Part shown: positions 15,374-25,738 of the stretch, one piece after another
How positions within the stretch are numbered: position 1 is the stretch's first letter
Layout of the letters: each line of letters starts with the position of its first letter
From: Escherichia phage vB_EcoM_NBG2
Sequence record: NC_054925.1
Reading direction: 5' to 3' (one strand)
Length of the DNA: 64,000 nt
The notes under the pieces: model-generated
What the model was told of the DNA's origin: nothing
Seen by the model: only the letters and a program-made list of their open reading frames with translations
Database searches by the model: none
Program-made: the position numbers and the translations under genes

Positions 15374-15419
15374 TATGTCAGTAAGTTTACTATAACACAA
15401 CACGAGGGACTTGTAAACT
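15374..15419 (-). promoter_or_regulatory. T4 early-type promoter
   Basis: Minus strand GTTTACA-N17-TGtTATAGT; near-identical copy at 31328-31376. Confidence 0.5.
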
Positions 15420-17475
15420 ACATTTTGAACTTTTTAGACATTCCGTTAATATTAACCAAAGAAGCCAAGATTTGAGAAACTTCGTTTTCCTCTTCTTTTG
15501 ATTCTTCTACAAGGAATTGATTAAATCCAGTCATTGGACGAACTTCACCAGTTTCCATTAGATGGTCGCCATCATATACCGATTCTTCTAATTGTTCAGA
15601 AGGAGGAACGATTGTGCCTTCGATTAGATACTTGTTATAAGCAGTTTCTTTCATCATGTACGTACTCACTTTATTAATCTTCAGCAAAATTCCACGTGGT
15701 AAAATAACTTCAGCTTCTGATGGAAATCCTGATAAATGACCCGGAACGATAACTTTGATTCGCTCAGCTCCTTTAATTACCATACCTACGCTAGTTTCAG
15801 CATCTTCATTCGCATAAGCAGAGTGACTGCCCATATGCATCAAATCTTCTGCGTCAACTGAACCTTCTCCTTCACCAGAAAATACTGCACTGGAATCATC
15901 TAGGGCCATATAGTTTTTACCATACTCACCGAAGATATTTGGTTTAAGCGATGTGGATACGAAGTTCTTGAAATAGAACATTTTATTTTCAATATTATGA
16001 CGTAAAGTTTTAAAGGTAACTTCTTGGCCACGGTAAAGCGTAGTTCCTGGAGGAAGAACTGATCCTTTGGCAAAGGCAGAATCCATTGTCTCGATGTGTT
16101 TAATAGCTCGTTCCATATATTCTTCACGGGTAGAATCCGGTTTACCTAAAAGGAACGAGTTCATTTCAACATATGAATCTGCACAATAATCTTCAATTAC
16201 ATCAGACTCAGCTTGAGTTAATCCTTTTGGAGTTACTTCAGTACTTGCATATTCATACGCTTGAGAAGCAGACTCATTAATCAATTTATAAACGCCATTC
16301 ATGACAAATTGAACAATAGCTACCTTTTCATCTGGTGTGGCTTTAGAACCTTTAACTAAATCATTGACAATTTTCTTAATAACATCAAAGCTATTAGAAA
16401 TATTAATGTCAGCAAGATCGCTTAAAATTTTATCAGTTTTATAATCAAAAAATTCTTTATTCTTTAAATATTCTTGAGAACCTTGATATGTTATATCGCT
16501 CTGTAACTTGATAGATGGATCACGTAAACGCGCATGAGCCAATGCAATATGATTTCGGAAGCTTTCTAATTCATAATCACTAGATTTAAAACGGGAAGCA
16601 CTTCTCATACCACCGATAGCTCCTTTGCTGAAGTTTGAACCAACCTGAATAACGCCAGAGTTCATTGGTCCTTCTGCTTTATATACCGGAACTTTAGATT
16701 CAAACTCTTGATATTTCTTAGCAGCGAAGCTATCACCCTGAAGTGAAGCATCGACAGTAGAATATTGAGCTTGTGCTGCTAACCGACGACTAATTTTAGT
16801 TTTCTGAATAACAGCTTGATCCGTGCGCTTATCGTTTTCTAAAGCAATAGAAGCAGCAACAGCAACAGCTTTAGGAACAGCATTACCTGTTTTAACATCT
16901 ATATAAACATCACCAACCTTTGATTCAACTTTTGTGAATAACTCAGTTGAAATAGGAGGTACACCTGGAATGTCTTCTAAATTAGCATTTTTACGGTAAA
17001 CCATAATATATGCGTACTTTTTATCGTAATCCCAGATTTCCTTTAAAAGAACATATCGACCTGCTCCTTTAGTACGTACTAAACGGTCGGCAATAACTTG
17101 CATTTGACGAGCTGCACCATTTGTTTTACTCTTTAGTACGCGGAATAAGCATGCGTCAATTTTGTATTGTTTCATTGTCTGAAGAGCAGTATCAAAAACC
17201 GCATTAATGACACCAATTGGATTTCCACCCAAGTTTTTAAGTTTAACTAATGATAGTTTTTCATTGACCCCTATCATTACGATATGCATCATTTTATCGC
17301 CTGGCTTAACGTTTTTATTTGTATCACCGCCAGAGGTGTATGTACAAAATCTAAATCCAGGAAGCACGCTTTCTTCACCGGCTTGAATAGCAAAAATTTG
17401 AGGTATTTTATGCTTAGGATTTAAGTTAACAACCGGCGCCGAAGCGCCGTCAAATAATTCTGTAATAAGTTCCAT
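15418..17475 (-). CDS. Alt-like mono-ADP-ribosyltransferase, paralog A
   Basis: 685 aa; N-terminus MELITELFD... shared with paralog B; ART motifs LYRGQ, FVSTSL, SEAEVILPRG. Confidence 0.8.
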   Translation of the reverse strand: MELITELFDGASAPVVNLNPKHKIPQIFAIQAGEESVLPGFRFCTYTSGGDTNKNVKPGDKMMHIVMIGVNEKLSLVKLKNLGGNPIGVINAVFDTALQTMKQYKIDACLFRVLKSKTNGAARQMQVIADRLVRTKGAGRYVLLKEIWDYDKKYAYIMVYRKNANLEDIPGVPPISTELFTKVESKVGDVYIDVKTGNAVPKAVAVAASIALENDKRTDQAVIQKTKISRRLAAQAQYSTVDASLQGDSFAAKKYQEFESKVPVYKAEGPMNSGVIQVGSNFSKGAIGGMRSASRFKSSDYELESFRNHIALAHARLRDPSIKLQSDITYQGSQEYLKNKEFFDYKTDKILSDLADINISNSFDVIKKIVNDLVKGSKATPDEKVAIVQFVMNGVYKLINESASQAYEYASTEVTPKGLTQAESDVIEDYCADSYVEMNSFLLGKPDSTREEYMERAIKHIETMDSAFAKGSVLPPGTTLYRGQEVTFKTLRHNIENKMFYFKNFVSTSLKPNIFGEYGKNYMALDDSSAVFSGEGEGSVDAEDLMHMGSHSAYANEDAETSVGMVIKGAERIKVIVPGHLSGFPSEAEVILPRGILLKINKVSTYMMKETAYNKYLIEGTIVPPSEQLEESVYDGDHLMETGEVRPMTGFNQFLVEESKEEENEVSQILASLVNINGMSKKFKM

Positions 17476-17478
17476 GAT

Positions 17479-19575
17479 TTATCCTTGAACGAACTTGTAA
17501 GGCATGTTTGTAATATCTATGCAAGACGCAATAATTCCAAGAGATGATTCTACTTTCTGTTTAACATTTGATGAAACAAATGATGCAAAGTCAACTCTGT
17601 CTTCTATTTCAATATCATCTGTCATTGCAACTACTTCACCCGTTTCCATTAGACGGTCACCGTCATAAATTACTGATTCGGTGAGTTCTTCCGTAGTCAT
17701 AACTTCAGCTTGAATGAGTTTTGTATTATTAGATGTTGTTCCGTCATTATTAGAAGCATCAGTTATTTTATTAACTTTGACCATCAATCCGCGCGGTAGA
17801 ATAACTTCAGCTTCAGTTGCTATTCCGAGACTTCCTGGATATACAACATTAACTTTATGAGCTCCATCAATTGCCCATCCTATTTGAACTTTAACGTATT
17901 CAGGATTTTCTTTATACGCTCTTATTTCGTTTGGATTAATAGTTATTCCTTCTTCATTTTTATCAACTGTTAATTCATTACGAGCTTCTGGTTCTAAAAG
18001 ACCGATACCAGCATGTGTAATTCCAAAACGTCCAAAAATGATAGGAGTTAAAGAAGTAGATACAAAATTTCTGAAATAGAACACTTTATTTTTAACTAGC
18101 GCTTCGTATATAGGAGCAGTCATACTTTGAGCACGATAAACTGTAATGCCCTCTGGTATACGGTCACCATTTTCAAAAGCTGAATCTAAATTATTTATCG
18201 CAGATTCAATTTCTTTTTCACTCATTACATCATATCGTTCTGGATTGTAGCGGCCTAAAAGAAGATTATTGATGTCAGTATATCCTGATCCACAATACTC
18301 TCTAATGCCGCGCTTTTGCGATGGAGTATATTTAGAACCATCACGTGCAATGGTAATATCAATCATTGGACCTGCACCAATTCCAGAAAAGCTATAAATC
18401 ATTCGTTTGAGGAATTTAGTTTTTGCTGCGTTCCAGGAATTTTTAGTTATTTCTTCCCAGACTTCATCTGGCTGCCCTTTACGAGTTTTATTATGTTTAT
18501 CAAGCCAATTATCTTTATATTCTTCAAATAATTGATTAACAGCTGCTGCGTATTTCTCTAAACATTTTATTGAAGTAGTTGGTTCATTTTTAATCGCATT
18601 AAGAATTACATCTTTAATTTTTTCAGAAACTTCATTAACCTCACTTTTTGAAAAGAATTTATAGTCATAGTGAAGTTCATCTGCGGTTCCTTCGGCAATA
18701 ATTTTTGCTGCCTTAGTTTTAGAAGCTAATGAATTAATTCCAAGCTTCATTTCTTCTGCTTCGGGAATTAAAGGAGCTGTAGCAGGTTTATTGAAATTAG
18801 CTGCGGTAGATTCATATTTCTGGAATAATTCGCTTTCAAATCTAGAAGATTCTAATGACTGACTTTGTGCAATTGCTCTACGGGAAATTTTAACTTTAAC
18901 GATAACAGCTTGGTCAGAGCGTTTATCATTTTCTTGTGCAATAGATGCTGCAATTGCCTCATTTTTAGTTACTTGAGCTCCAGTATCTTTATTGATATAA
19001 ACATCGCCGACTTTCGATTCAACCTTAGTAAAGAGCTCGGTACTAATTTCAGGAACTCCTGGAATGTCTTCTAGTGATACATTTTTGCGATGTATAAGAA
19101 TATATGCGTACTTTTTATCATAATCCCAGAGTTCCTTAAGAAGGACGTATCTGCCACCTGAACGACTACGGATAAGTCTATCAGCAATAACTTGAATTTG
19201 TCGAGCTTGACCAGCAGTTTTAGACTTAAGAATACGAAGCATACAGGCATCAATTTTATACTGACGCATCGTCTGCATTGCAACAGTAAAAACTGAATTG
19301 ATGTAATTAATTGGGCTTGGACCGAGACCTTTTAATTTAGCAATTGAACCTTTAGCAGTTAATGTAAAAGGAACAATATGCATCATTTTATCGCCCATTT
19401 TTAAATCGCGATTAGTATCACCTCCAGATGTATAGGTACATAAACGAAAGCCTGGTTGTTCAATTGCATCATCAACATGAACTGAAAAAATTTGTGGTAT
19501 TTTCTTCTTTGGATTTAAGTTTGTAATCGGAAGAGTAGTATCTTCGTCAAATAATTCTGTAATGAGTTCCATCAT
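17479..19575 (-). CDS. alt: Alt ADP-ribosyltransferase, paralog B (late-promoter-proximal)
   Basis: 698 aa (697 from second Met); MELITELFDEDTTLPITNLNPKKK...; ART motifs VYRAQ, FVSTSL, TEAEVILPRG. Confidence 0.85.
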   Translation of the reverse strand: MMELITELFDEDTTLPITNLNPKKKIPQIFSVHVDDAIEQPGFRLCTYTSGGDTNRDLKMGDKMMHIVPFTLTAKGSIAKLKGLGPSPINYINSVFTVAMQTMRQYKIDACMLRILKSKTAGQARQIQVIADRLIRSRSGGRYVLLKELWDYDKKYAYILIHRKNVSLEDIPGVPEISTELFTKVESKVGDVYINKDTGAQVTKNEAIAASIAQENDKRSDQAVIVKVKISRRAIAQSQSLESSRFESELFQKYESTAANFNKPATAPLIPEAEEMKLGINSLASKTKAAKIIAEGTADELHYDYKFFSKSEVNEVSEKIKDVILNAIKNEPTTSIKCLEKYAAAVNQLFEEYKDNWLDKHNKTRKGQPDEVWEEITKNSWNAAKTKFLKRMIYSFSGIGAGPMIDITIARDGSKYTPSQKRGIREYCGSGYTDINNLLLGRYNPERYDVMSEKEIESAINNLDSAFENGDRIPEGITVYRAQSMTAPIYEALVKNKVFYFRNFVSTSLTPIIFGRFGITHAGIGLLEPEARNELTVDKNEEGITINPNEIRAYKENPEYVKVQIGWAIDGAHKVNVVYPGSLGIATEAEVILPRGLMVKVNKITDASNNDGTTSNNTKLIQAEVMTTEELTESVIYDGDRLMETGEVVAMTDDIEIEDRVDFASFVSSNVKQKVESSLGIIASCIDITNMPYKFVQG

Positions 19576-19813: not shown

Positions 19814-21270
19814 AAACCAGTTACCTCATGAAAATCACCAAATACATCCTCGAATGTATTAGCTTTAGTTTTATCTTCACGTAAACGAATCGCAATTGGA
19901 AGAAATAATTTAACGTAATCAGTGCGACCATCAGATTTTAACCAACCATTGCATTCGCACTCTAGAATTTTTCCAATATAATAATTTTGGTTTTCCATAA
20001 TGCGAGTACGGTCAAGTTCATGTGATTTTACACCGGCTTTATCTTTTAAGCCTGAACCAGCATTTACTTTAATTTTTCCACACTCTGATTCAAGAATAAA
20101 TCCACCCGCTTTAGTAGGGTCTTTACGGTGAGGATAAATTCCTACAATTTTTAAATCAACATCAATTACTTCTTTAAATTTATAGAGATTTTTTGAACGA
20201 GCATTTTCCCACAATCCATCGGTATTTTTGAGAATAATACCTTCAAGACCTTGGTCAATATATTTTTTATAAATTACCTTAGCTTCATCTAGGTTATTTA
20301 CTACTTGGTTTTCAATTAAAATTACTTTATCATATCCTGATGTCATTTGTTCTAGTTTAGAAAAACGTACATCATATTTTAAACGAAACGCCGGAAGACC
20401 GTATATTTCTACCAACGGAACATAATCCCAGACCTGAAACTTCATACATTGGGCTTCTTTTTCTGAAATAGTTCCCTTTAAAGATTTATTAGCGATTCCA
20501 TTAGAAGCAGTACGAGATTCAGCTACTTCTGTGAAGTCTTTAGCTTTGCTAATTTCAGGAGTGTCAAAAAGAAAATCTAGGCCTTCTGGTTCCTTTTTAA
20601 CTTGCTCATGGTATACCAATTCGCCATCAATTAACACACCTTCTGGATGAATCTGGCGGGCTTCAGCGGTCATTTTGATTAACTCTTCCTTAAGAAGATC
20701 TAATCCTAGATATTCATTACCAGCTCGTGATAAAAGACGAACATCATCTAATTCATCTCCTCTGACTTCAGCAAAACACCGGGCTCCATCTGCTTTTAAC
20801 TGCGCAAAAGCTGGAAATTTGATATTCTTACTAATGCCTTTTTCATCATAAGAACTTGCAAGCATTTGAGGTTGTTCAGGAATTAAACCTGGCCAAACTT
20901 TGTTTGCAATAGATACTGAAGCACCGCATTCAAGGTCTCGCATCATAACTCGGCGCAAAACTTCAACATCATCCTTTTTACCATCGGTGATATATCCAGT
21001 TAATTCCTCAATTGCTGCATTTCCAGTCAATTTCCGAGTAGCTAACGTAAATTCAATAAAGTCAAGCATATCGGTAATGGTCAGCATTCCAAAACTCTGG
21101 GTAGCAATACCAGGCTTAGGCCATTTCTTGATATAATACTGTAACCCACGAGAATAAGTCAGACGATATACTCGTTTAAGCAATTCATTATCTTTATTCT
21201 TTTCAAGAATTGCTTGCTTCTGCTTAGTTGATCCAATAGATGCTATTTCATTCAGAATTTTAAGAATCAT
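19810..21270 (-). CDS. 30: ATP-dependent DNA ligase
   Basis: 486 aa, MILKILNEIASIGSTKQKQAILEKNKDNELLKRVYRL...; adenylation motif FAQLKADGARC (KxDG). Confidence 0.97.
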   Translation of the reverse strand: MILKILNEIASIGSTKQKQAILEKNKDNELLKRVYRLTYSRGLQYYIKKWPKPGIATQSFGMLTITDMLDFIEFTLATRKLTGNAAIEELTGYITDGKKDDVEVLRRVMMRDLECGASVSIANKVWPGLIPEQPQMLASSYDEKGISKNIKFPAFAQLKADGARCFAEVRGDELDDVRLLSRAGNEYLGLDLLKEELIKMTAEARQIHPEGVLIDGELVYHEQVKKEPEGLDFLFDTPEISKAKDFTEVAESRTASNGIANKSLKGTISEKEAQCMKFQVWDYVPLVEIYGLPAFRLKYDVRFSKLEQMTSGYDKVILIENQVVNNLDEAKVIYKKYIDQGLEGIILKNTDGLWENARSKNLYKFKEVIDVDLKIVGIYPHRKDPTKAGGFILESECGKIKVNAGSGLKDKAGVKSHELDRTRIMENQNYYIGKILECECNGWLKSDGRTDYVKLFLPIAIRLREDKTKANTFEDVFGDFHEVTGL

Positions 21271-21536
21271 TGTTCATCCTTCAGAGTTTGATTTACATCT
21301 CTATTATAAATCAATTCATCATTAAGCTCAGGCAAAGACTTATGATATGTAGTTCTAACTTTATTTCCTTGCATCCAGTGCTTGACGTAAATGAAACCTT
21401 GCTCTACACATTTTTTAAAAATTCGTTCGTCTTTTTGAGCACGGAATTCTGGATTGCATCTAAAAAATTGATTTACGTGACCGTAATCACGTGTAGTATT
21501 ACCTTCATTTTCATAAATAGTATGAACAACAAACAT
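21267..21536 (-). CDS. hypothetical protein (30.1 position)
   Basis: 89-aa ORF overlapping the gene 30 start. Confidence 0.6.
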   Translation of the reverse strand: MFVVHTIYENEGNTTRDYGHVNQFFRCNPEFRAQKDERIFKKCVEQGFIYVKHWMQGNKVRTTYHKSLPELNDELIYNRDVNQTLKDEQ

Positions 21537-22381
21537 TAGAATGCTCCTTGAAAAATATTATCACCACTAGTAGGTCTATTATACAAATACTCTATGCCAC
21601 CAGGTTTAATATAGTTCCATGTCTGAAACGGATATGTCTGATATGGATAATATGGATGATATAGATTATAAGGATTAAATCCAGGCGTTCTCCAGGTAGT
21701 GTTCCAAGGAAAAGAATCGTTTTTAACCATCTTCTCAATTACATCTTTTATAGCTTTTTCACTATCAAAATTTTCTTTATTTTCCTTCGGTGAAAAAAGC
21801 TTATTTTCTACATCATTCCATGTATAAACTCGCTGAGCAGTTTTTGGAATATTGTCACGTTCTCCTCGAGCCATCCAATAAACCGGAACATTTAATATTT
21901 CACTCGCGTGGTCGCAGTGGTGAGCGAGATCGTCAATATAACAAATTACGTTATATTTCTCTTTTGCCTTTTTAAACAACTCTTCTTTTGAAGAATCATG
22001 ACCACACATCATTACTTCTGAGAAGGCACCAGGAAAAAGAGCATTCAAATTAAATTGACGATTTAATAGAGCATCAATAGAATCACCCAATGCTGTAACA
22101 GCTACAAAATTATAATCTTCTTTTAATTTGTTAATTACACACAGGGCATCTTTATACGGAGACAAGTAACGAATAAAATCTGAACGATTGTATTTTTCAA
22201 TTAACTTGACGCCAAGTTCTTCGTCACAATTAAAGAGTTTACCTGGAGAAATAAATTTCTCATCTTGGATCATTTTTAAAATATGTTCTAATGGAAGATT
22301 ATATTTCTGAGCAAAATAAGGAAGGCCTGATTGCCAGCTTAAACATACTCCATCAATATCAGTCAAAATAGTTGGCTTCAT
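21536..22381 (-). CDS. HAD-superfamily-like hydrolase (30.2 position)
   Basis: 281 aa; N-terminal LTDIDGV resembles the HAD motif I DxDG. Confidence 0.6.
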   Translation of the reverse strand: MKPTILTDIDGVCLSWQSGLPYFAQKYNLPLEHILKMIQDEKFISPGKLFNCDEELGVKLIEKYNRSDFIRYLSPYKDALCVINKLKEDYNFVAVTALGDSIDALLNRQFNLNALFPGAFSEVMMCGHDSSKEELFKKAKEKYNVICYIDDLAHHCDHASEILNVPVYWMARGERDNIPKTAQRVYTWNDVENKLFSPKENKENFDSEKAIKDVIEKMVKNDSFPWNTTWRTPGFNPYNLYHPYYPYQTYPFQTWNYIKPGGIEYLYNRPTSGDNIFQGAF

Positions 22382-22842
22382 AGAGAGTCTCTTAATAGGT
22401 TTAACACATCAATAAATTCAGCTTCGGTTAGTATTGTATCATCTTTTGTTAGACCACTAGCCATGCTGTGCTTCAAAACTTTTCCTTTCGAGGCTTGTAA
22501 TGCATCACGAAAGCCCCTGTTTTGGATCGCTGCTTCAAAATATGCATTTGTGTATAATTCTTTCCATGCTTCGGAATATCTTGAAAACGGAGTTCCAAGC
22601 CAGAACAACGTGCCACGGTCCTGAGCTCTTGCATAAGCTCGTCCAGCTTTTTGCGCATCCAACCCGGACATCCCAAATATGCGTCTTTGCTGTTCAACAT
22701 TTTTCACCTTACACCCTTGGAGGAATCCTTCGAGACCTCCAAATTGGATACCATCCATAACGAAAGGCCATTGGGCGAAATTGCTTAATGCACATGATGG
22801 CCATCTAAAATTGCTTCTTATCTCTAGCTCAGACATTTTCAA
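22378..22842 (-). CDS. NADAR / YbiA-like (DUF1768) domain protein (30.3 position)
   Basis: 154 aa; LSNFAQWPFVMDGIQF matches the YbiA core FSNFAAWPIKVDGKTW. Confidence 0.65.
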   Translation of the reverse strand: MKMSELEIRSNFRWPSCALSNFAQWPFVMDGIQFGGLEGFLQGCKVKNVEQQRRIFGMSGLDAQKAGRAYARAQDRGTLFWLGTPFSRYSEAWKELYTNAYFEAAIQNRGFRDALQASKGKVLKHSMASGLTKDDTILTEAEFIDVLNLLRDSL

Positions 22843-23035
22843 TACTTATAATTTCAACATCAGCCCAATGACCATAGCAAGGAAGACGAAATTCAACTGG
22901 CCAGTTAGGGTCCTTTTCTAATATAATAGACTTAACTTGTGGTTCTTCATGTTCATCGGTATACGGACCTTTATACGTTACTTTATATGTGACCTTAATG
23001 TACTGAATTCCAAAAATCTTATTAATTATATTCAT
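22829..23035 (-). CDS. hypothetical protein
   Basis: 68-aa ORF in the co-oriented 30.x block. Confidence 0.5.
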   Translation of the reverse strand: MNIINKIFGIQYIKVTYKVTYKGPYTDEHEEPQVKSIILEKDPNWPVEFRLPCYGHWADVEIISIENV

Positions 23036-23229
23036 ACTAATTCCTTTAATCCATAGATAGGAGATAATTCATCACCCATACGAAGGTCTTCATTTCCATC
23101 TACCCAGGAAACAATATAAGCCTCTTTTATTTGAACGTCTCTCCATTTAAATGCAGGCAAAACCTTAGAAATTAATCCAGGTATACCGACTCCCTTTAAT
23201 TCAACAGTTTGACCCAAAAAGAATTTCAT
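23032..23229 (-). CDS. hypothetical protein
   Basis: 65-aa ORF in the co-oriented 30.x block. Confidence 0.5.
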   Translation of the reverse strand: MKFFLGQTVELKGVGIPGLISKVLPAFKWRDVQIKEAYIVSWVDGNEDLRMGDELSPIYGLKELV

Positions 23230-23516
23230 TAGAACCTCATCTGAAATCCGTGCGATTTAACATTACCACCACCAATGTCAGAAATATTAATTTCACTCGC
23301 AATTGAAGGGTCAATGTCAATTTCACGATTGAGTTTAATGATTGCTAGAGTATCACGTCCATTTACAGTACGGAACTCTAAAGGACATACTACATTAACG
23401 TAGTTTTTAATCGATTCACTGGTAGGCTGCAAATGAGCAGGAAGGTCTTTAGGCGCCTTAGAGAAAACCACTTCACAGAAATTTTTGCGGGTATCAAAAT
23501 AAGTAGTCATAAACAT
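23229..23516 (-). CDS. hypothetical protein (start moved to internal Met after a stem-loop)
   Basis: Track ORF runs to 23567, but a ggggccgaagcccc hairpin sits at 23534-23547 and GAGGAAAatactATG gives a better start. Confidence 0.5.
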   Translation of the reverse strand: MFMTTYFDTRKNFCEVVFSKAPKDLPAHLQPTSESIKNYVNVVCPLEFRTVNGRDTLAIIKLNREIDIDPSIASEINISDIGGGNVKSHGFQMRF

Positions 23517-23556
23517 AGTATTTTCCTCAGTAAGGGGCCGAAGCCCCTGTTTTATT

Positions 23557-23934
23557 TTAAATATCAAATTCGTTAAGAACTACATCAAAGATTGCTTCAA
23601 GATGCTCAGGTTTAGCTCTGTTACTCAGAATATGACGAATCCAAGTTTTAACCAGAAGCTTACGATTGACGCCATTCCAACAAGGATGAGTCCCTAAATC
23701 ACGTTGACGAAAATCATCATCCAGAGCGATTTTAAAAGAAGAACCTTCTTTCGTGATTGAAACCGTAATGCCATTTTCAAATCGCATATAAACGTAGTTA
23801 GGAGTCATATACTGTTCAATTTCGCATACTGATCCATTTTGATGTTTCCAAAGGCAAATAGTATCAATAGAACCTGCAATACCGTTAGAAACATATTTAC
23901 GTTCAAAGTTAATGTAGTTCATTTTATTCTCCAA
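23557..23934 (-). CDS. hypothetical protein (30.7 position)
   Basis: 125-aa ORF. Confidence 0.55.
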   Translation of the reverse strand: MENKMNYINFERKYVSNGIAGSIDTICLWKHQNGSVCEIEQYMTPNYVYMRFENGITVSITKEGSSFKIALDDDFRQRDLGTHPCWNGVNRKLLVKTWIRHILSNRAKPEHLEAIFDVVLNEFDI

Positions 23935-23944
23935 GATGTTTAAT

Positions 23945-23990
23945 TGCGGTACAGGTATATAATATCATATCCTGTACCAAAGTAAACAAT
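23945..23990 (-). promoter_or_regulatory. early-type promoter with embedded inverted repeat
   Basis: Minus strand GTTTAC-N17-TATTAT; inverted repeat GGTACAGG-N15-CCTGTACC spans the spacer and -10. Confidence 0.45.
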
Positions 23991-24322
23991 TATTTTACTA
24001 ATTTCCAATGCTTCATGTCAAGTTTGCCAACTTTTTTCATCTTCTCAATTAAGCGTTCGGCACGCTGGCGAGCTGTAACATAATACCATTCACCCAATTC
24101 ATTTTGTTCAATTTTTCCAACGATTACTGTATTCAATTCATAAATCCAACCAGTAAAGAAATTATGAACTTGAATTGTAAAGGTGAAATCTGTTCCCATA
24201 CCTTCTGTTGTTTCTACTTCAACAATATCACCTTCAACTGCCATTAAGAACCACATAGTTTCATCATATTTACCATTGAAGCATTTAGTTTTAACTGCAG
24301 CGTTCAGATTAATCGTTTTCAT
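23990..24322 (-). CDS. hypothetical protein (30.8 position)
   Basis: 110-aa ORF. Confidence 0.55.
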   Translation of the reverse strand: MKTINLNAAVKTKCFNGKYDETMWFLMAVEGDIVEVETTEGMGTDFTFTIQVHNFFTGWIYELNTVIVGKIEQNELGEWYYVTARQRAERLIEKMKKVGKLDMKHWKLVK

Positions 24323-24342
24323 TTTATTCTCCTTTGTTTGTG

Positions 24343-24385
24343 TAAGATAATACTATCACAAAGGAACCATACTGTAAACAACTTT
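24343..24385 (-). promoter_or_regulatory. early-type promoter
   Basis: Minus strand GTTTACA-N17-TGATAGTAT. Confidence 0.45.
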
Positions 24386-24399
24386 GTGCAATCTTTGGA

Positions 24400-24427
24400 A
24401 AATAAAAAAGGACTCCCGAAGGAGTCC
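24400..24427 (-). terminator. rho-independent terminator downstream of 30.9
   Basis: ggactcc-cgaa-ggagtcc hairpin followed by UUUUUU on the minus-strand transcript. Confidence 0.7.
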
Positions 24428-24432
24428 TCAAC

Positions 24433-24651
24433 TTATGCTTTCTGCTTACCAAAACGAGAAGCATCATCTCGAAGAACCGCACGTGCTCGGCGCATGATCT
24501 TCTCAACAGTTTGATTGATACGAGAGTTCGACCCACGCTTGTAACCAGCGCGTTTAGAATCACCAACTTTCTTTTCAACTGCTTTCTTTGCTTTAGCTTG
24601 TTTTGCCATTATAAATTCTCTTTTAAATGAAAATGCAGGACTTATTGGCAT
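24433..24651 (-). CDS. small basic protein (30.9 position); start may be the internal Met at 24609
   Basis: 72-aa ORF, or 58 aa from MAKQAKAKKAVEKK...; Lys/Arg-rich. Confidence 0.55.
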   Translation of the reverse strand: MPISPAFSFKREFIMAKQAKAKKAVEKKVGDSKRAGYKRGSNSRINQTVEKIMRRARAVLRDDASRFGKQKA

Positions 24652-25006
24652 TGCCTGCGCAAGCCCTCAAGGGGAACATAGGTTTTGTATATTTACCGAC
24701 AGGATAACCATAAACCTCGTCAACATACCTTATAGCTCTTATCTGTTGCACACCGTTAGCTTAAAGGTTCCGGGTTCGATTTCTCGAGGATAAGATATAT
24801 ACTGATGGATATATAGGCCTTGAGGCGTACTCCCGATTGGCCATCACCTCGGGGTAGCATGCACTTGCCGCTATAAGAATAACATTCAAGAGGTACACCA
24901 TAAAACTGCCGGGGTCTTAAAACTATAATGATTCGCAAATCATTAATCAGACAGTTCGATGGCTCCTCGATTTTAGCTCACACTAAGGCAGTGAATCTCC
25001 AATAAA
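24652..25006. other. unusually long GC-enriched non-coding gap between rIII and 30.9; candidate structured RNA
   Basis: About 355 nt with no convincing ORF; GC-rich blocks and several stem-loops including an 8-bp helix 24818-24825 with 24847-24854. Confidence 0.4.
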
Positions 25007-25255
25007 TTACTTCAGTGTTACCACAAAGTGACGAACTGCTTTTCGTGCGGCAGAAGCCAGAGGCTTAGCATATTTAAGTTCATCTTTTTCCTGGAGCTCA
25101 GCAGCTAATGCAGTTTGAGCAGGATTCAGATGTTTGAAATAACGCAGGATTTCAAGAGCTTCGGCTTCAACATCAATAGATGCGCCATAGTTTTCGTGAC
25201 CATTATTCCATGCGTTTCGTTGCAGTTCAAGAGCGTGTTGTAATTGTTTAATCAT
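25007..25255 (-). CDS. rIII: lysis inhibition accessory protein rIII
   Basis: 82 aa, MIKQLQHALELQRNAWNNGHENYG...; between 31 and 30.9 as in T4. Confidence 0.88.
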   Translation of the reverse strand: MIKQLQHALELQRNAWNNGHENYGASIDVEAEALEILRYFKHLNPAQTALAAELQEKDELKYAKPLASAARKAVRHFVVTLK

Positions 25256-25394
25256 TTAAAAATTCTCGTTAGAGATTAAAACTCGGTAGTCACGTTCTTC
25301 TGAATTTCATCTTCTTTCGACAGATCTCTCAGTTGTAGACTACCACGTAGAATTGTTCGGTTAACTTATTATTCCGACACCCAATTCATATTAT

Positions 25395-25402
25395 TATTTA
25401 TA
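25395..25402 (-). promoter_or_regulatory. late promoter core TATAAATA upstream of rIII
   Basis: TATAAATA on minus strand overlapping the gene 31 stop. Confidence 0.4.
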
Positions 25403-25738
25403 TCACTTATAAAGACACGGAATAGCTTTATAATGACATGTTACGAATTTTTGTTTAATTTCTTTTGGCTGCTTAAGACCCAGAGCTACAAAAGGATGCG
25501 GAACGTTTCGAATTTGACCAACTGGAAGAGAAGTCAAATCACCAACTTCGCAGAAACCTTCAGGAACATCAGGACCAACAGAGTGAACTACACACAGTTC
25601 AGGAACTTCACCTTGAACACGTTTACCGATAATAAGTCCTGATTCTGTAACTTCTTCATCACCGGCTTGCGCAGGTTCAGAAACTAAAATAACATATTCA
25701 CCGACAGCACGAATTGGTAGCTGTTGTACTTCAGACAT
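25403..25738 (-). CDS. 31: co-chaperonin gp31 (GroES analogue)
   Basis: 111 aa, [38 protein letters not shown]... Confidence 0.93.

What the first reader, a model, noticed from the sequence alone, without database searches (positions are those of the whole stretch)
22378..22842. NADAR/YbiA-like protein beside a HAD-like hydrolase in the 30.x block
The 154-aa ORF contains LSNFAQWPFVMDGIQF, matching the conserved core of YbiA/NADAR (DUF1768) proteins. NADAR-family proteins are reported to remove ADP-ribose from modified guanine bases, which would make this a candidate counter-defence against DarT-like toxins. The upstream 281-aa ORF (21536-22381) has a HAD-type DxDG motif (LTDIDGV). Notable in a phage that itself encodes ADP-ribosyltransferases.
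Basis: partly seen in the sequence, partly recalled or inferred. Interest (0 to 1): 0.45.

Follow-up and report, generated by a model that had tools for sequence, protein, structure and literature searches.

The report
Known phage anti-DarT enzyme AdfN (gp30.3)

Summary
The ORF is real. The window comes from a Tequatrovirus (T4-like phage). The protein is 95% identical to T4 gp30.3 and matches Pfam PF08010 (Phage_30_3) at E=2.7e-68.

T4 gp30.3 is already published as AdfN, a guanine-specific DNA ADP-ribosylglycohydrolase:
- It is active in vitro (Cihlova 2024, Johannesman 2025).
- It is needed for T4 to grow on DarTG1 hosts (Johannesman 2025; HIDEN-SEQ preprint 2025).

The neighbouring gp30.2 (21536..22381) is a HAD-fold hydrolase with all four HAD motifs. 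It travels with DNA ligase, not with the NADAR gene, so nothing here suggests the two act as a module. Interest is low.

The parts
22378..22836 (-). adfN / gene 30.3 CDS: 152 aa plus stop, a NADAR-fold DNA ADP-ribosylglycohydrolase
22729..22731 (-). Codon GAA for E36, the catalytic glutamate (PnNADAR E43, E. coli C7 NADAR E88)
   Evidence: The codon was read. E36 is invariant in 80/80 homologs. It aligns with the Glu of YbiA in 'SEHYFQAQKF'. T4 AdfN E36A is impaired (PMC11825919).
22708..22710 (-). Codon AAG for K43, the phosphate-binding lysine (PnNADAR K50, C7 K95)
   Evidence: The codon was read. K43 is invariant in 80/80 homologs. The Glu-to-Lys spacing of 7 is the same as in the characterised NADARs. 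The K43A mutant is impaired.
22468..22470 (-). Codon CAC for H123, the last-strand residue that marks the phage (gp30.3) NADAR subgroup; it replaces Glu (YbiA family) or Asp (DarT1-linked NADARs)
   Evidence: The codon was read. H123 ends the last beta-strand (residues 120-123) of the model. It is conserved in 79/80 homologs. The subgroup definition is in PMC11125620 and PMC11543638.
22381..22425 (-). C-terminal helix (residues 138-152), intact here; the inactive RB69 allele loses it through a frameshift
   Evidence: The model has a helix at 138-151. The C-terminus is identical to T4. The RB69 truncation of 15 residues reduces activity.
21536..22381 (-). Gene 30.2: a HAD-superfamily hydrolase (core residues 1-~195) with a disordered Tyr/Pro/Asn-rich tail; its start overlaps the adfN stop (ATGA)
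   Evidence: It is 96% identical to T4 gp30.2. D8, D10, K132, D150 and D151 are invariant and T96 nearly so. In the AF2 model the core has pLDDT >90 and residues 224-281 are <50. All listed Foldseek PDB hits but one (a designed enzyme, SNAr1.3) are named HAD-superfamily or HAD-type enzymes, including 5'(3')-deoxyribonucleotidases.
22829..23035 (-). Gene 30.4 (68 aa, function unknown), the gene just before adfN in the direction of transcription; its stop overlaps the adfN ATG
   Evidence: The ORF is. It matches phrog_2042 at E=5e-34. T4 has the same gene order.
22473..22700 (-). 30.3' internal out-of-frame ORF (75 aa), annotated in T4; probably not a conserved protein-coding gene
   Evidence: It is only 71% identical to T4, against 95% for the overlapping 30.3 frame. 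Its ATG is lost in 8 of 13 T-even loci and one further locus has an internal stop.

Best explanation
The gene is the ortholog of T4 30.3 (adfN) in a T4-like phage. Its product is a small stand-alone NADAR-fold enzyme.

Proposed mechanism: during infection, the host DarT1 toxin of a DarTG1 system attaches ADP-ribose to the N2 amino group of guanines in single-stranded phage DNA, which blocks replication. AdfN binds the ADP-ribose (K43 to the phosphates; E36 and H123 around the distal ribose), hydrolyses the N-glycosidic bond and restores unmodified guanine, so replication continues. It does not bind or inhibit DarT1, and it does not act on thymine-linked ADP-ribose (DarT2).

Shown here: orthology, fold, catalytic residues and an intact C-terminal helix.
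Shown in the literature for the T4 protein: in vitro guanine de-ADP-ribosylation, loss of DarTG1 resistance on deletion or transposon insertion, and rescue of RB69 when the gene is supplied in trans.
Inferred: that this 95%-identical allele behaves the same way.
For: - Identity: 95% to T4 gp30.3 with no gaps. The gene order 30.5-30.4-30.3-30.2-30.1-ligase is the same as in T4.
- Family: PF08010 at E=2.7e-68.
- Residues: E36, K43 and H123 are conserved in 80, 80 and 79 of 80 viral homologs. All eight differences from T4 fall at variable positions.
- Literature: PMC11825919, PMC11125620, PMC11543638 and the HIDEN-SEQ preprint, in which adfN insertions are lost on a DarTG1 host.
Against: - Nothing was measured for this particular allele.
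- The window protein does not itself reach Pfam NADAR PF08719 at E<=0.1. The sequence link to NADAR is transitive, through the family profile and 15 of 67 relatives.
- T4 AdfN fails to neutralise DarT1 in uninfected cells and barely rescues T5 or Bas25. So part of how it works in vivo is still unexplained.
Confidence: 0.93

Rival explanations
1. The enzyme is a NADAR, but its main physiological substrate is not DarT1-modified DNA. Candidates are products of the phage's own ADP-ribosyltransferases (Alt, ModA, ModB), of other guanine-targeting host ARTs such as YarT-like toxins, or a small-molecule N-glycoside as for E. coli YbiA in riboflavin metabolism.
For: Two Alt-like ARTs lie 3-7 kb away in the same window. 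T4 AdfN does not protect uninfected cells from DarT1, which Cihlova et al. read as context-dependent specificity. YbiA-type N-glycosidase activity exists within the superfamily.
Against: T4 lacking adfN becomes sensitive to DarTG1 and is complemented in trans. Transposon insertions in adfN are lost specifically on DarTG1 hosts, and the gene is dispensable on plain K-12. The last-strand residue is His, not the Glu of the YbiA family. This reading could be an extra role but not a replacement.
Confidence: 0.05
2. gp30.3 and the downstream HAD hydrolase gp30.2 form a two-enzyme module. For example, gp30.2 could process the released ADP-ribose or a phosphorylated intermediate, or could be the T-even-specific factor that AdfN needs in vivo.
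For: The ATGA stop/start overlap suggests translational coupling. The two genes are adjacent in T4 and its close relatives. gp30.2 has an intact HAD active site. Johannesman et al. infer that an unidentified T-even factor is needed.
Against: Of 80 viral loci with a gp30.3 homolog, only 20 have a gp30.2 homolog downstream within about 4 kb. All 20 are T4-like; 19 are followed by DNA ligase and the twentieth (L008) ends inside 30.2. In five of them other DNA (0.7-1.2 kb) separates the two genes. A distant NADAR locus has no HAD neighbour. The DarTG1-resistance determinant mapped to the 3' part of 30.3 alone. The HIDEN-SEQ text names only 30.3/adfN for DarTG1 and never mentions 30.2.
Confidence: 0.04
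3. This allele is an inactive remnant, like the frameshifted RB69 copy.
For: RB69 shows that inactive alleles circulate among T-even phages. Shorter gp30.3-like fragments are also common in the protein database (e.g. P0008, P0013).
Against: The reading frame is full length (152 aa). The last 27 residues, which include the whole C-terminal helix, are identical to T4. All catalytic and invariant residues are retained.
Confidence: 0.02

Closest known systems
T4 gp30.3 = AdfN (anti-DarT factor NADAR; Johannesman et al., Nat Commun 2025, PMC11825919)
   Same: Same length (152 aa), 95% identity and the same genomic position between 30.4 and 30.2. E36, K43, H123 and the C-terminal helix are the same.
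   Different: There are eight substitutions (positions 56, 60, 63, 67, 82, 89, 107, 125), all at positions that vary within the family. No functional difference is expected.
DarG1, the NADAR antitoxin of DarTG1 (E. coli C7; Geobacter lovleyi 8bat; Schuller et al. 2023, PMC11543638)
   Different: DarG1 has Asp in the last strand where the phage protein has His. It is longer (219 aa for 8bat against 152) and is encoded next to darT1. It neutralises DarT1 in uninfected cells, which T4 AdfN does not.
E. coli YbiA (2b3w) and Phytophthora NADAR (8bau), YbiA-family NADARs
   Different: Only about 20% identity. They have Glu rather than His in the last strand. YbiA is linked to riboflavin-intermediate N-glycosidase activity and to a LexA-controlled operon, not to phage counter-defence.
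AdfN(Bas32) and AdfN(Bas60), NADARs of T5-like and Vequintavirinae phages
   Same: They are stand-alone phage NADARs that counter DarTG1 and are specific for guanine-ADPr.
   Different: They belong to different NADAR branches and were acquired independently. They work without a T-even infection context. They were not compared by sequence here.
5'(3')-deoxyribonucleotidases (cdN/mdN; 2jao, 2i7d, 4yih) and other C1-capped HAD phosphatases, for the neighbour gp30.2
   Same: Same HAD Rossmann-like core with the DxD nucleophile motif. The Foldseek E-values are 1e-7 to 2e-6. The profile hits 2jao at E=0.038 across motif I and the cap.
   Different: Identity is below 20% and no Pfam or NCBIfam model reaches E<=0.1. 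gp30.2 has an extra disordered aromatic-rich tail of about 60 residues. Its substrate is unknown.

Membership tests
NADAR superfamily (YbiA fold) | [quoted passage not shown] | tested here: met
NADAR superfamily (YbiA fold) | Conserved catalytic Glu and, seven residues later, Lys (PnNADAR E43/K50; E. coli C7 E88/K95) | tested here: met
   E36 and K43 are present and are invariant in 80/80 homologs. They align with the YbiA motif.
NADAR superfamily (YbiA fold) | Significant match to the Pfam NADAR model PF08719 | tested here: inconclusive
   The window protein hits only PF08010 at E<=0.1. However, 15 of 67 family members hit PF08719 (best 1.5e-7), and the family profile hits YbiA at E=0.002.
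Phage NADAR subgroup (gp30.3 / PF08010) | Histidine in the last beta-strand in place of Glu (YbiA family) or Asp (BC4488/DarT1-linked) | tested here: met
   H123 ends strand 120-123 and is conserved in 79/80 homologs.
Phage NADAR subgroup (gp30.3 / PF08010) | Match to PF08010 above the gathering score | tested here: met
   228.5 bits against a cut-off of 36, covering the full model 1-138.
AdfN (anti-DarTG1 factor) | Orthology with T4 30.3, including synteny | tested here: met
   95% identity. The gene order is the same as in T4.
AdfN (anti-DarTG1 factor) | Intact C-terminal helix (absent in the inactive RB69 allele) | tested here: met
   The protein is the full 152 aa and residues 126-152 are identical to T4. 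The model has a helix at 138-151.
AdfN (anti-DarTG1 factor) | Removes guanine-linked ADP-ribose from DNA and confers resistance to DarTG1 | not testable with these tools
   This is shown only for the T4 protein and is inferred here from 95% identity.
HAD superfamily (for neighbour gp30.2) | Four catalytic motifs: DxD nucleophile, Thr/Ser, Lys, and acidic DD | tested here: met
   D8, D10, K132, D150 and D151 are invariant and T96 is conserved in at least 90% of 59 homologs.
HAD superfamily (for neighbour gp30.2) | Rossmann-like HAD core fold with cap | tested here: met
   In the AF2 model the core has pLDDT >90. There are 105 Foldseek PDB hits at E<=0.001; all but one of those listed (a designed enzyme, SNAr1.3) are named HAD-superfamily or HAD-type enzymes.
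HAD superfamily (for neighbour gp30.2) | Match to a curated HAD sequence model | tested here: not met
   There is no Pfam or NCBIfam hit at E<=0.1. The only matches are weak: PHROG hits to the PNK phosphatase (E=0.002) and a profile hit to cdN (E=0.038).

The most novel reading that the evidence does not exclude
gp30.2, the HAD hydrolase translationally coupled to adfN, is the unidentified T-even-specific factor that AdfN(T4) needs for full activity in vivo. It might act by clearing a phosphorylated by-product or by recruiting AdfN to replicating DNA through its aromatic-rich tail. The evidence here leans against this: the linkage is not conserved beyond T4-like phages, and no screen has reported 30.2 as a hit. 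It is not excluded, because every system in which AdfN(T4) worked also contained a 30.2 gene.
Probability: 0.04. Interest if true: 0.5.

Novelty: already known. Interest (0 to 1): 0.1.

Why it matters
It matters little as a discovery. The gene, its fold, its enzymatic activity and its role against DarTG1 were published in 2023-2025 for the T4 ortholog.

The practical value is for annotation. In all 23 top-scoring records listed from the two searches, out of roughly 690-730 matching phage records, this gene is still labelled 'hypothetical protein' or the record is unannotated. It can be renamed adfN / NADAR DNA ADP-ribosylglycohydrolase, and an intact allele predicts resistance to DarTG1.

One open question remains: why AdfN(T4) works fully only during a T-even infection.

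Tried and rejected
- A single-sequence search of the PDB found nothing meaningful. The profile was needed to reach YbiA.
- A direct Pfam scan did not place the protein in PF08719. NCBIfam gave no hit for either protein.
It was repeated without that sequence.
- I tested whether 30.2 and 30.3 are a conserved pair, using 80 viral loci and one distant metagenomic phage contig. They are not.
- I considered the RB69-type inactive allele and rejected it.
- I considered whether the T4-annotated internal ORF 30.3' is a real overlapping gene. Its sequence is not conserved and its start codon is often lost.
- Promoter and terminator scans in 21000-25500 gave counts no higher than in shuffled sequence, so no regulatory claim is made.
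- Two paper-search calls failed on the minimum term length.

Full report
**Observation.** One search lists a minus-strand ORF at 22378..22842 (154 aa from a TTG) containing LSNFAQWPFVMDGIQF. It also lists a 281-aa minus-strand ORF at 21536..22381 that begins MKPTILTDIDGV.

The more likely start of the first ORF is the ATG at 22836, giving 152 aa. Three things point to this. T4 gene 30.3 is annotated as 459 bp. All close homologs begin MSELEIRS. The ATG overlaps the stop codon of the preceding ORF, 30.4, as ATGTCTGA. The stop of this ORF in turn overlaps the start of the 281-aa ORF as ATGA at 22378-22381. In the direction of transcription the HAD-like gene is therefore downstream, not upstream.

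**Where the window comes from.** The 3-kb region around the finding is 97% identical to many Escherichia T4-like phages, with 733 phage records matching. The gene order is ligase, 30.1, 30.2, 30.3, 30.4, 30.5, as in phage T4. The protein is 95% identical to T4 gp30.3 over all 152 residues without gaps. The neighbour is 96% identical to T4 gp30.2.

**Is it a NADAR?** Pfam places the protein in PF08010 (Phage_30_3) at E=2.7e-68, not directly in PF08719 (NADAR). I tested the link in three independent ways.
- A profile of 68 family members hits E. coli YbiA (2b3w) as its only PDB match at E=0.002. The alignment runs across the SNF...E..FQ..K core.
- 15 of 67 family members themselves hit PF08719, the best at 1.5e-7. 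Several are named 'YbiA (DUF1768 family)' by JGI.

These are the same three structures reported for T4 AdfN in the literature.

**Catalytic residues.** Schuller et al. (PMC11543638) define three positions:
- a Glu (PnNADAR E43, E. coli C7 E88);
- a Lys seven residues later (K50, K95);

The window protein has E36 and K43, with the same spacing of seven, and H123 at the end of the last predicted strand. Across 80 viral loci that encode a homolog, E36 and K43 are conserved in 80 of 80. H123 is conserved in 79 of 80; the remaining sequence has a gap at this and the neighbouring C-terminal columns. The eight differences from T4 (positions 56, 60, 63, 67, 82, 89, 107, 125) all lie at positions that vary within the family. 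The C-terminal helix, which a frameshift removes in the inactive RB69 allele, is intact and identical to T4.

**What is already known.**
- Cihlova et al. 2024 (PMC11125620) report that the T4 phage NADAR (gp30.3) hydrolyses guanine-linked but not thymine-linked ADP-ribose on DNA in vitro. It does not rescue uninfected cells from DarT1.
- Johannesman et al. 2025 (PMC11825919) mapped DarTG1 resistance of T-even phages to 30.3 and renamed it adfN. Their main findings:
  - AdfN does not bind DarT1.
  - The purified protein, but not E36A, removes ADP-ribose from DarT1-modified DNA.
  - The E36A, K43A and RB69-like truncated variants rescue RB69 only partly.
  - Deletion of adfN sensitises T4 to DarTG1.
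  - AdfN does not counter DarTG2.
  - It works fully only during T-even infection, for an unknown reason.
- A 2025 transposon-screen preprint (10.1101/2025.11.20.689424) independently finds 30.3/adfN insertions lost on a DarTG1 host. It assigns DarTG2 resistance to a different gene, tk.4/adfM.

**Mechanism.** DarT1 transfers ADP-ribose from NAD+ to the N2 of guanine in single-stranded DNA. AdfN hydrolyses that bond and restores guanine, so phage replication proceeds. The reaction and the phenotype are shown for T4. For this allele they are inferred from orthology, fold and residue conservation.

**The neighbour gp30.2.** No Pfam or NCBIfam model matches it. Even so, the evidence for a HAD hydrolase is clear.
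- Among 59 homologs, D8, D10, K132, D150 and D151 are invariant and T96 is nearly so. This is the classical four-motif HAD signature.
- The AlphaFold model has a confident alpha/beta core (residues 1-~195, pLDDT >90) and a disordered Tyr/Pro/Asn/Trp-rich tail (residues 224-281, pLDDT <50).
- All but one of the listed Foldseek PDB hits are named HAD-superfamily or HAD-type enzymes; the exception is a designed enzyme (SNAr1.3) whose fold I did not check. The 5'(3')-deoxyribonucleotidases are among those with the lowest rmsd and highest target TM-scores.
- The family profile weakly hits mouse cdN (E=0.038).

So the HAD call is confirmed. The substrate is unknown.

**Are 30.2 and 30.3 a module?** I fetched 80 viral loci that encode a gp30.3 homolog and searched about 4 kb on each side with profiles.
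- Only 20 carry a gp30.2 homolog downstream. All 20 are T4-like.
- In 19 of them DNA ligase follows 30.2. The twentieth locus (L008) ends inside 30.2.
- In five of them, 0.7-1.2 kb of other DNA separates 30.3 from 30.2.
- One further locus (L041) has a much weaker 30.2-profile match (E=7e-20) upstream of the NADAR gene.
- The roughly 60 more distant NADAR loci have no 30.2 homolog nearby.
- A distant metagenomic phage contig likewise has none.

Many gp30.2 homologs also come from T4-like phages of hosts (Acinetobacter, Serratia, Shewanella) that none of the named gp30.3 hits come from. So gp30.2 travels with ligase, and the adjacency to adfN looks like local synteny.

The published mapping of DarTG1 resistance to the 3' part of 30.3 alone points the same way, as does the absence of 30.2 from the transposon-screen text. 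A cofactor role for gp30.2 is not strictly excluded, because every setting in which AdfN(T4) worked also had a 30.2 gene. I give it about 4%.

**Verdict.** The feature is already known, as adfN/30.3, a phage NADAR that counters DarTG1. In all 23 top-scoring records listed from the two searches the gene is still labelled 'hypothetical protein' or the record is unannotated, so the useful outcome is a better annotation rather than a discovery.

Noticed in passing
window 15418..17475 (-) and 17479..19575 (-): Two tandem Alt-like ADP-ribosyltransferase genes (685 and 698 aa) both hit PF03496 and are 41% identical to each other. The copy nearer the ligase is almost identical to T4 Alt (one substitution, at residue 20) over the first ~245 residues and then diverges sharply (71% overall across the 501 residues compared), which suggests a mosaic gene. 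The second copy is present in about 500 phage records, so it is common among T4-like phages.
   Followed up: partly
window 22473..22700 (-): The internal out-of-frame ORF 30.3', annotated in T4 as an internal translation product, is still open here (75 aa). It is only 71% identical to T4, while the overlapping 30.3 frame is 95% identical. Its ATG is replaced in 8 of 13 T-even loci and one further locus has an internal stop. It does not look like a conserved protein-coding gene.
   Followed up: yes
window 21536..21710 (-), residues ~224-281 of gp30.2: The HAD hydrolase carries a C-terminal tail rich in Tyr, Pro, Asn and Trp (…FPWNTTWRTPGFNPYNLYHPYYPYQTYPFQTWNYIKPGG…). It is predicted to be disordered, differs from T4 by a 3-residue indel, and varies greatly in length among homologs (196-347 aa in total). 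Its function is unknown.
   Followed up: partly
loci L005-L084 (viral contigs): gp30.2 homologs sit just before DNA ligase in 19 of the 20 loci where 30.2 lies downstream of 30.3; the remaining locus ends inside 30.2. This link with ligase is tighter than the one with adfN, and it may hint at a role in nucleotide or DNA-end metabolism.
   Followed up: partly
literature, PMC11125620 Methods: The Cihlova et al. Methods list the 'E. coli T4 phage NADAR (gp30.3; residues: 1-208)', but T4 gp30.3 is annotated as 152 aa. The construct may include a tag or come from a different accession. I did not resolve this.
   Followed up: no
window 24021..23992 (-) and 24429..24408 (-): There is a near-consensus sigma-70-like site (TTGACA-18-TAAAAT, 11 of 12) and a strong hairpin followed by a T-run on the coding strand, ahead of the 30.x gene block. 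Site counts in the region are no higher than in shuffled sequence, so I make no claim about them.
   Followed up: no
locus L002 1819..2316 (+): A distant phage-like metagenomic contig that carries a gp30.3-type NADAR also encodes a small GGDEF-domain protein (165 aa) about 1.7 kb upstream.
   Followed up: no
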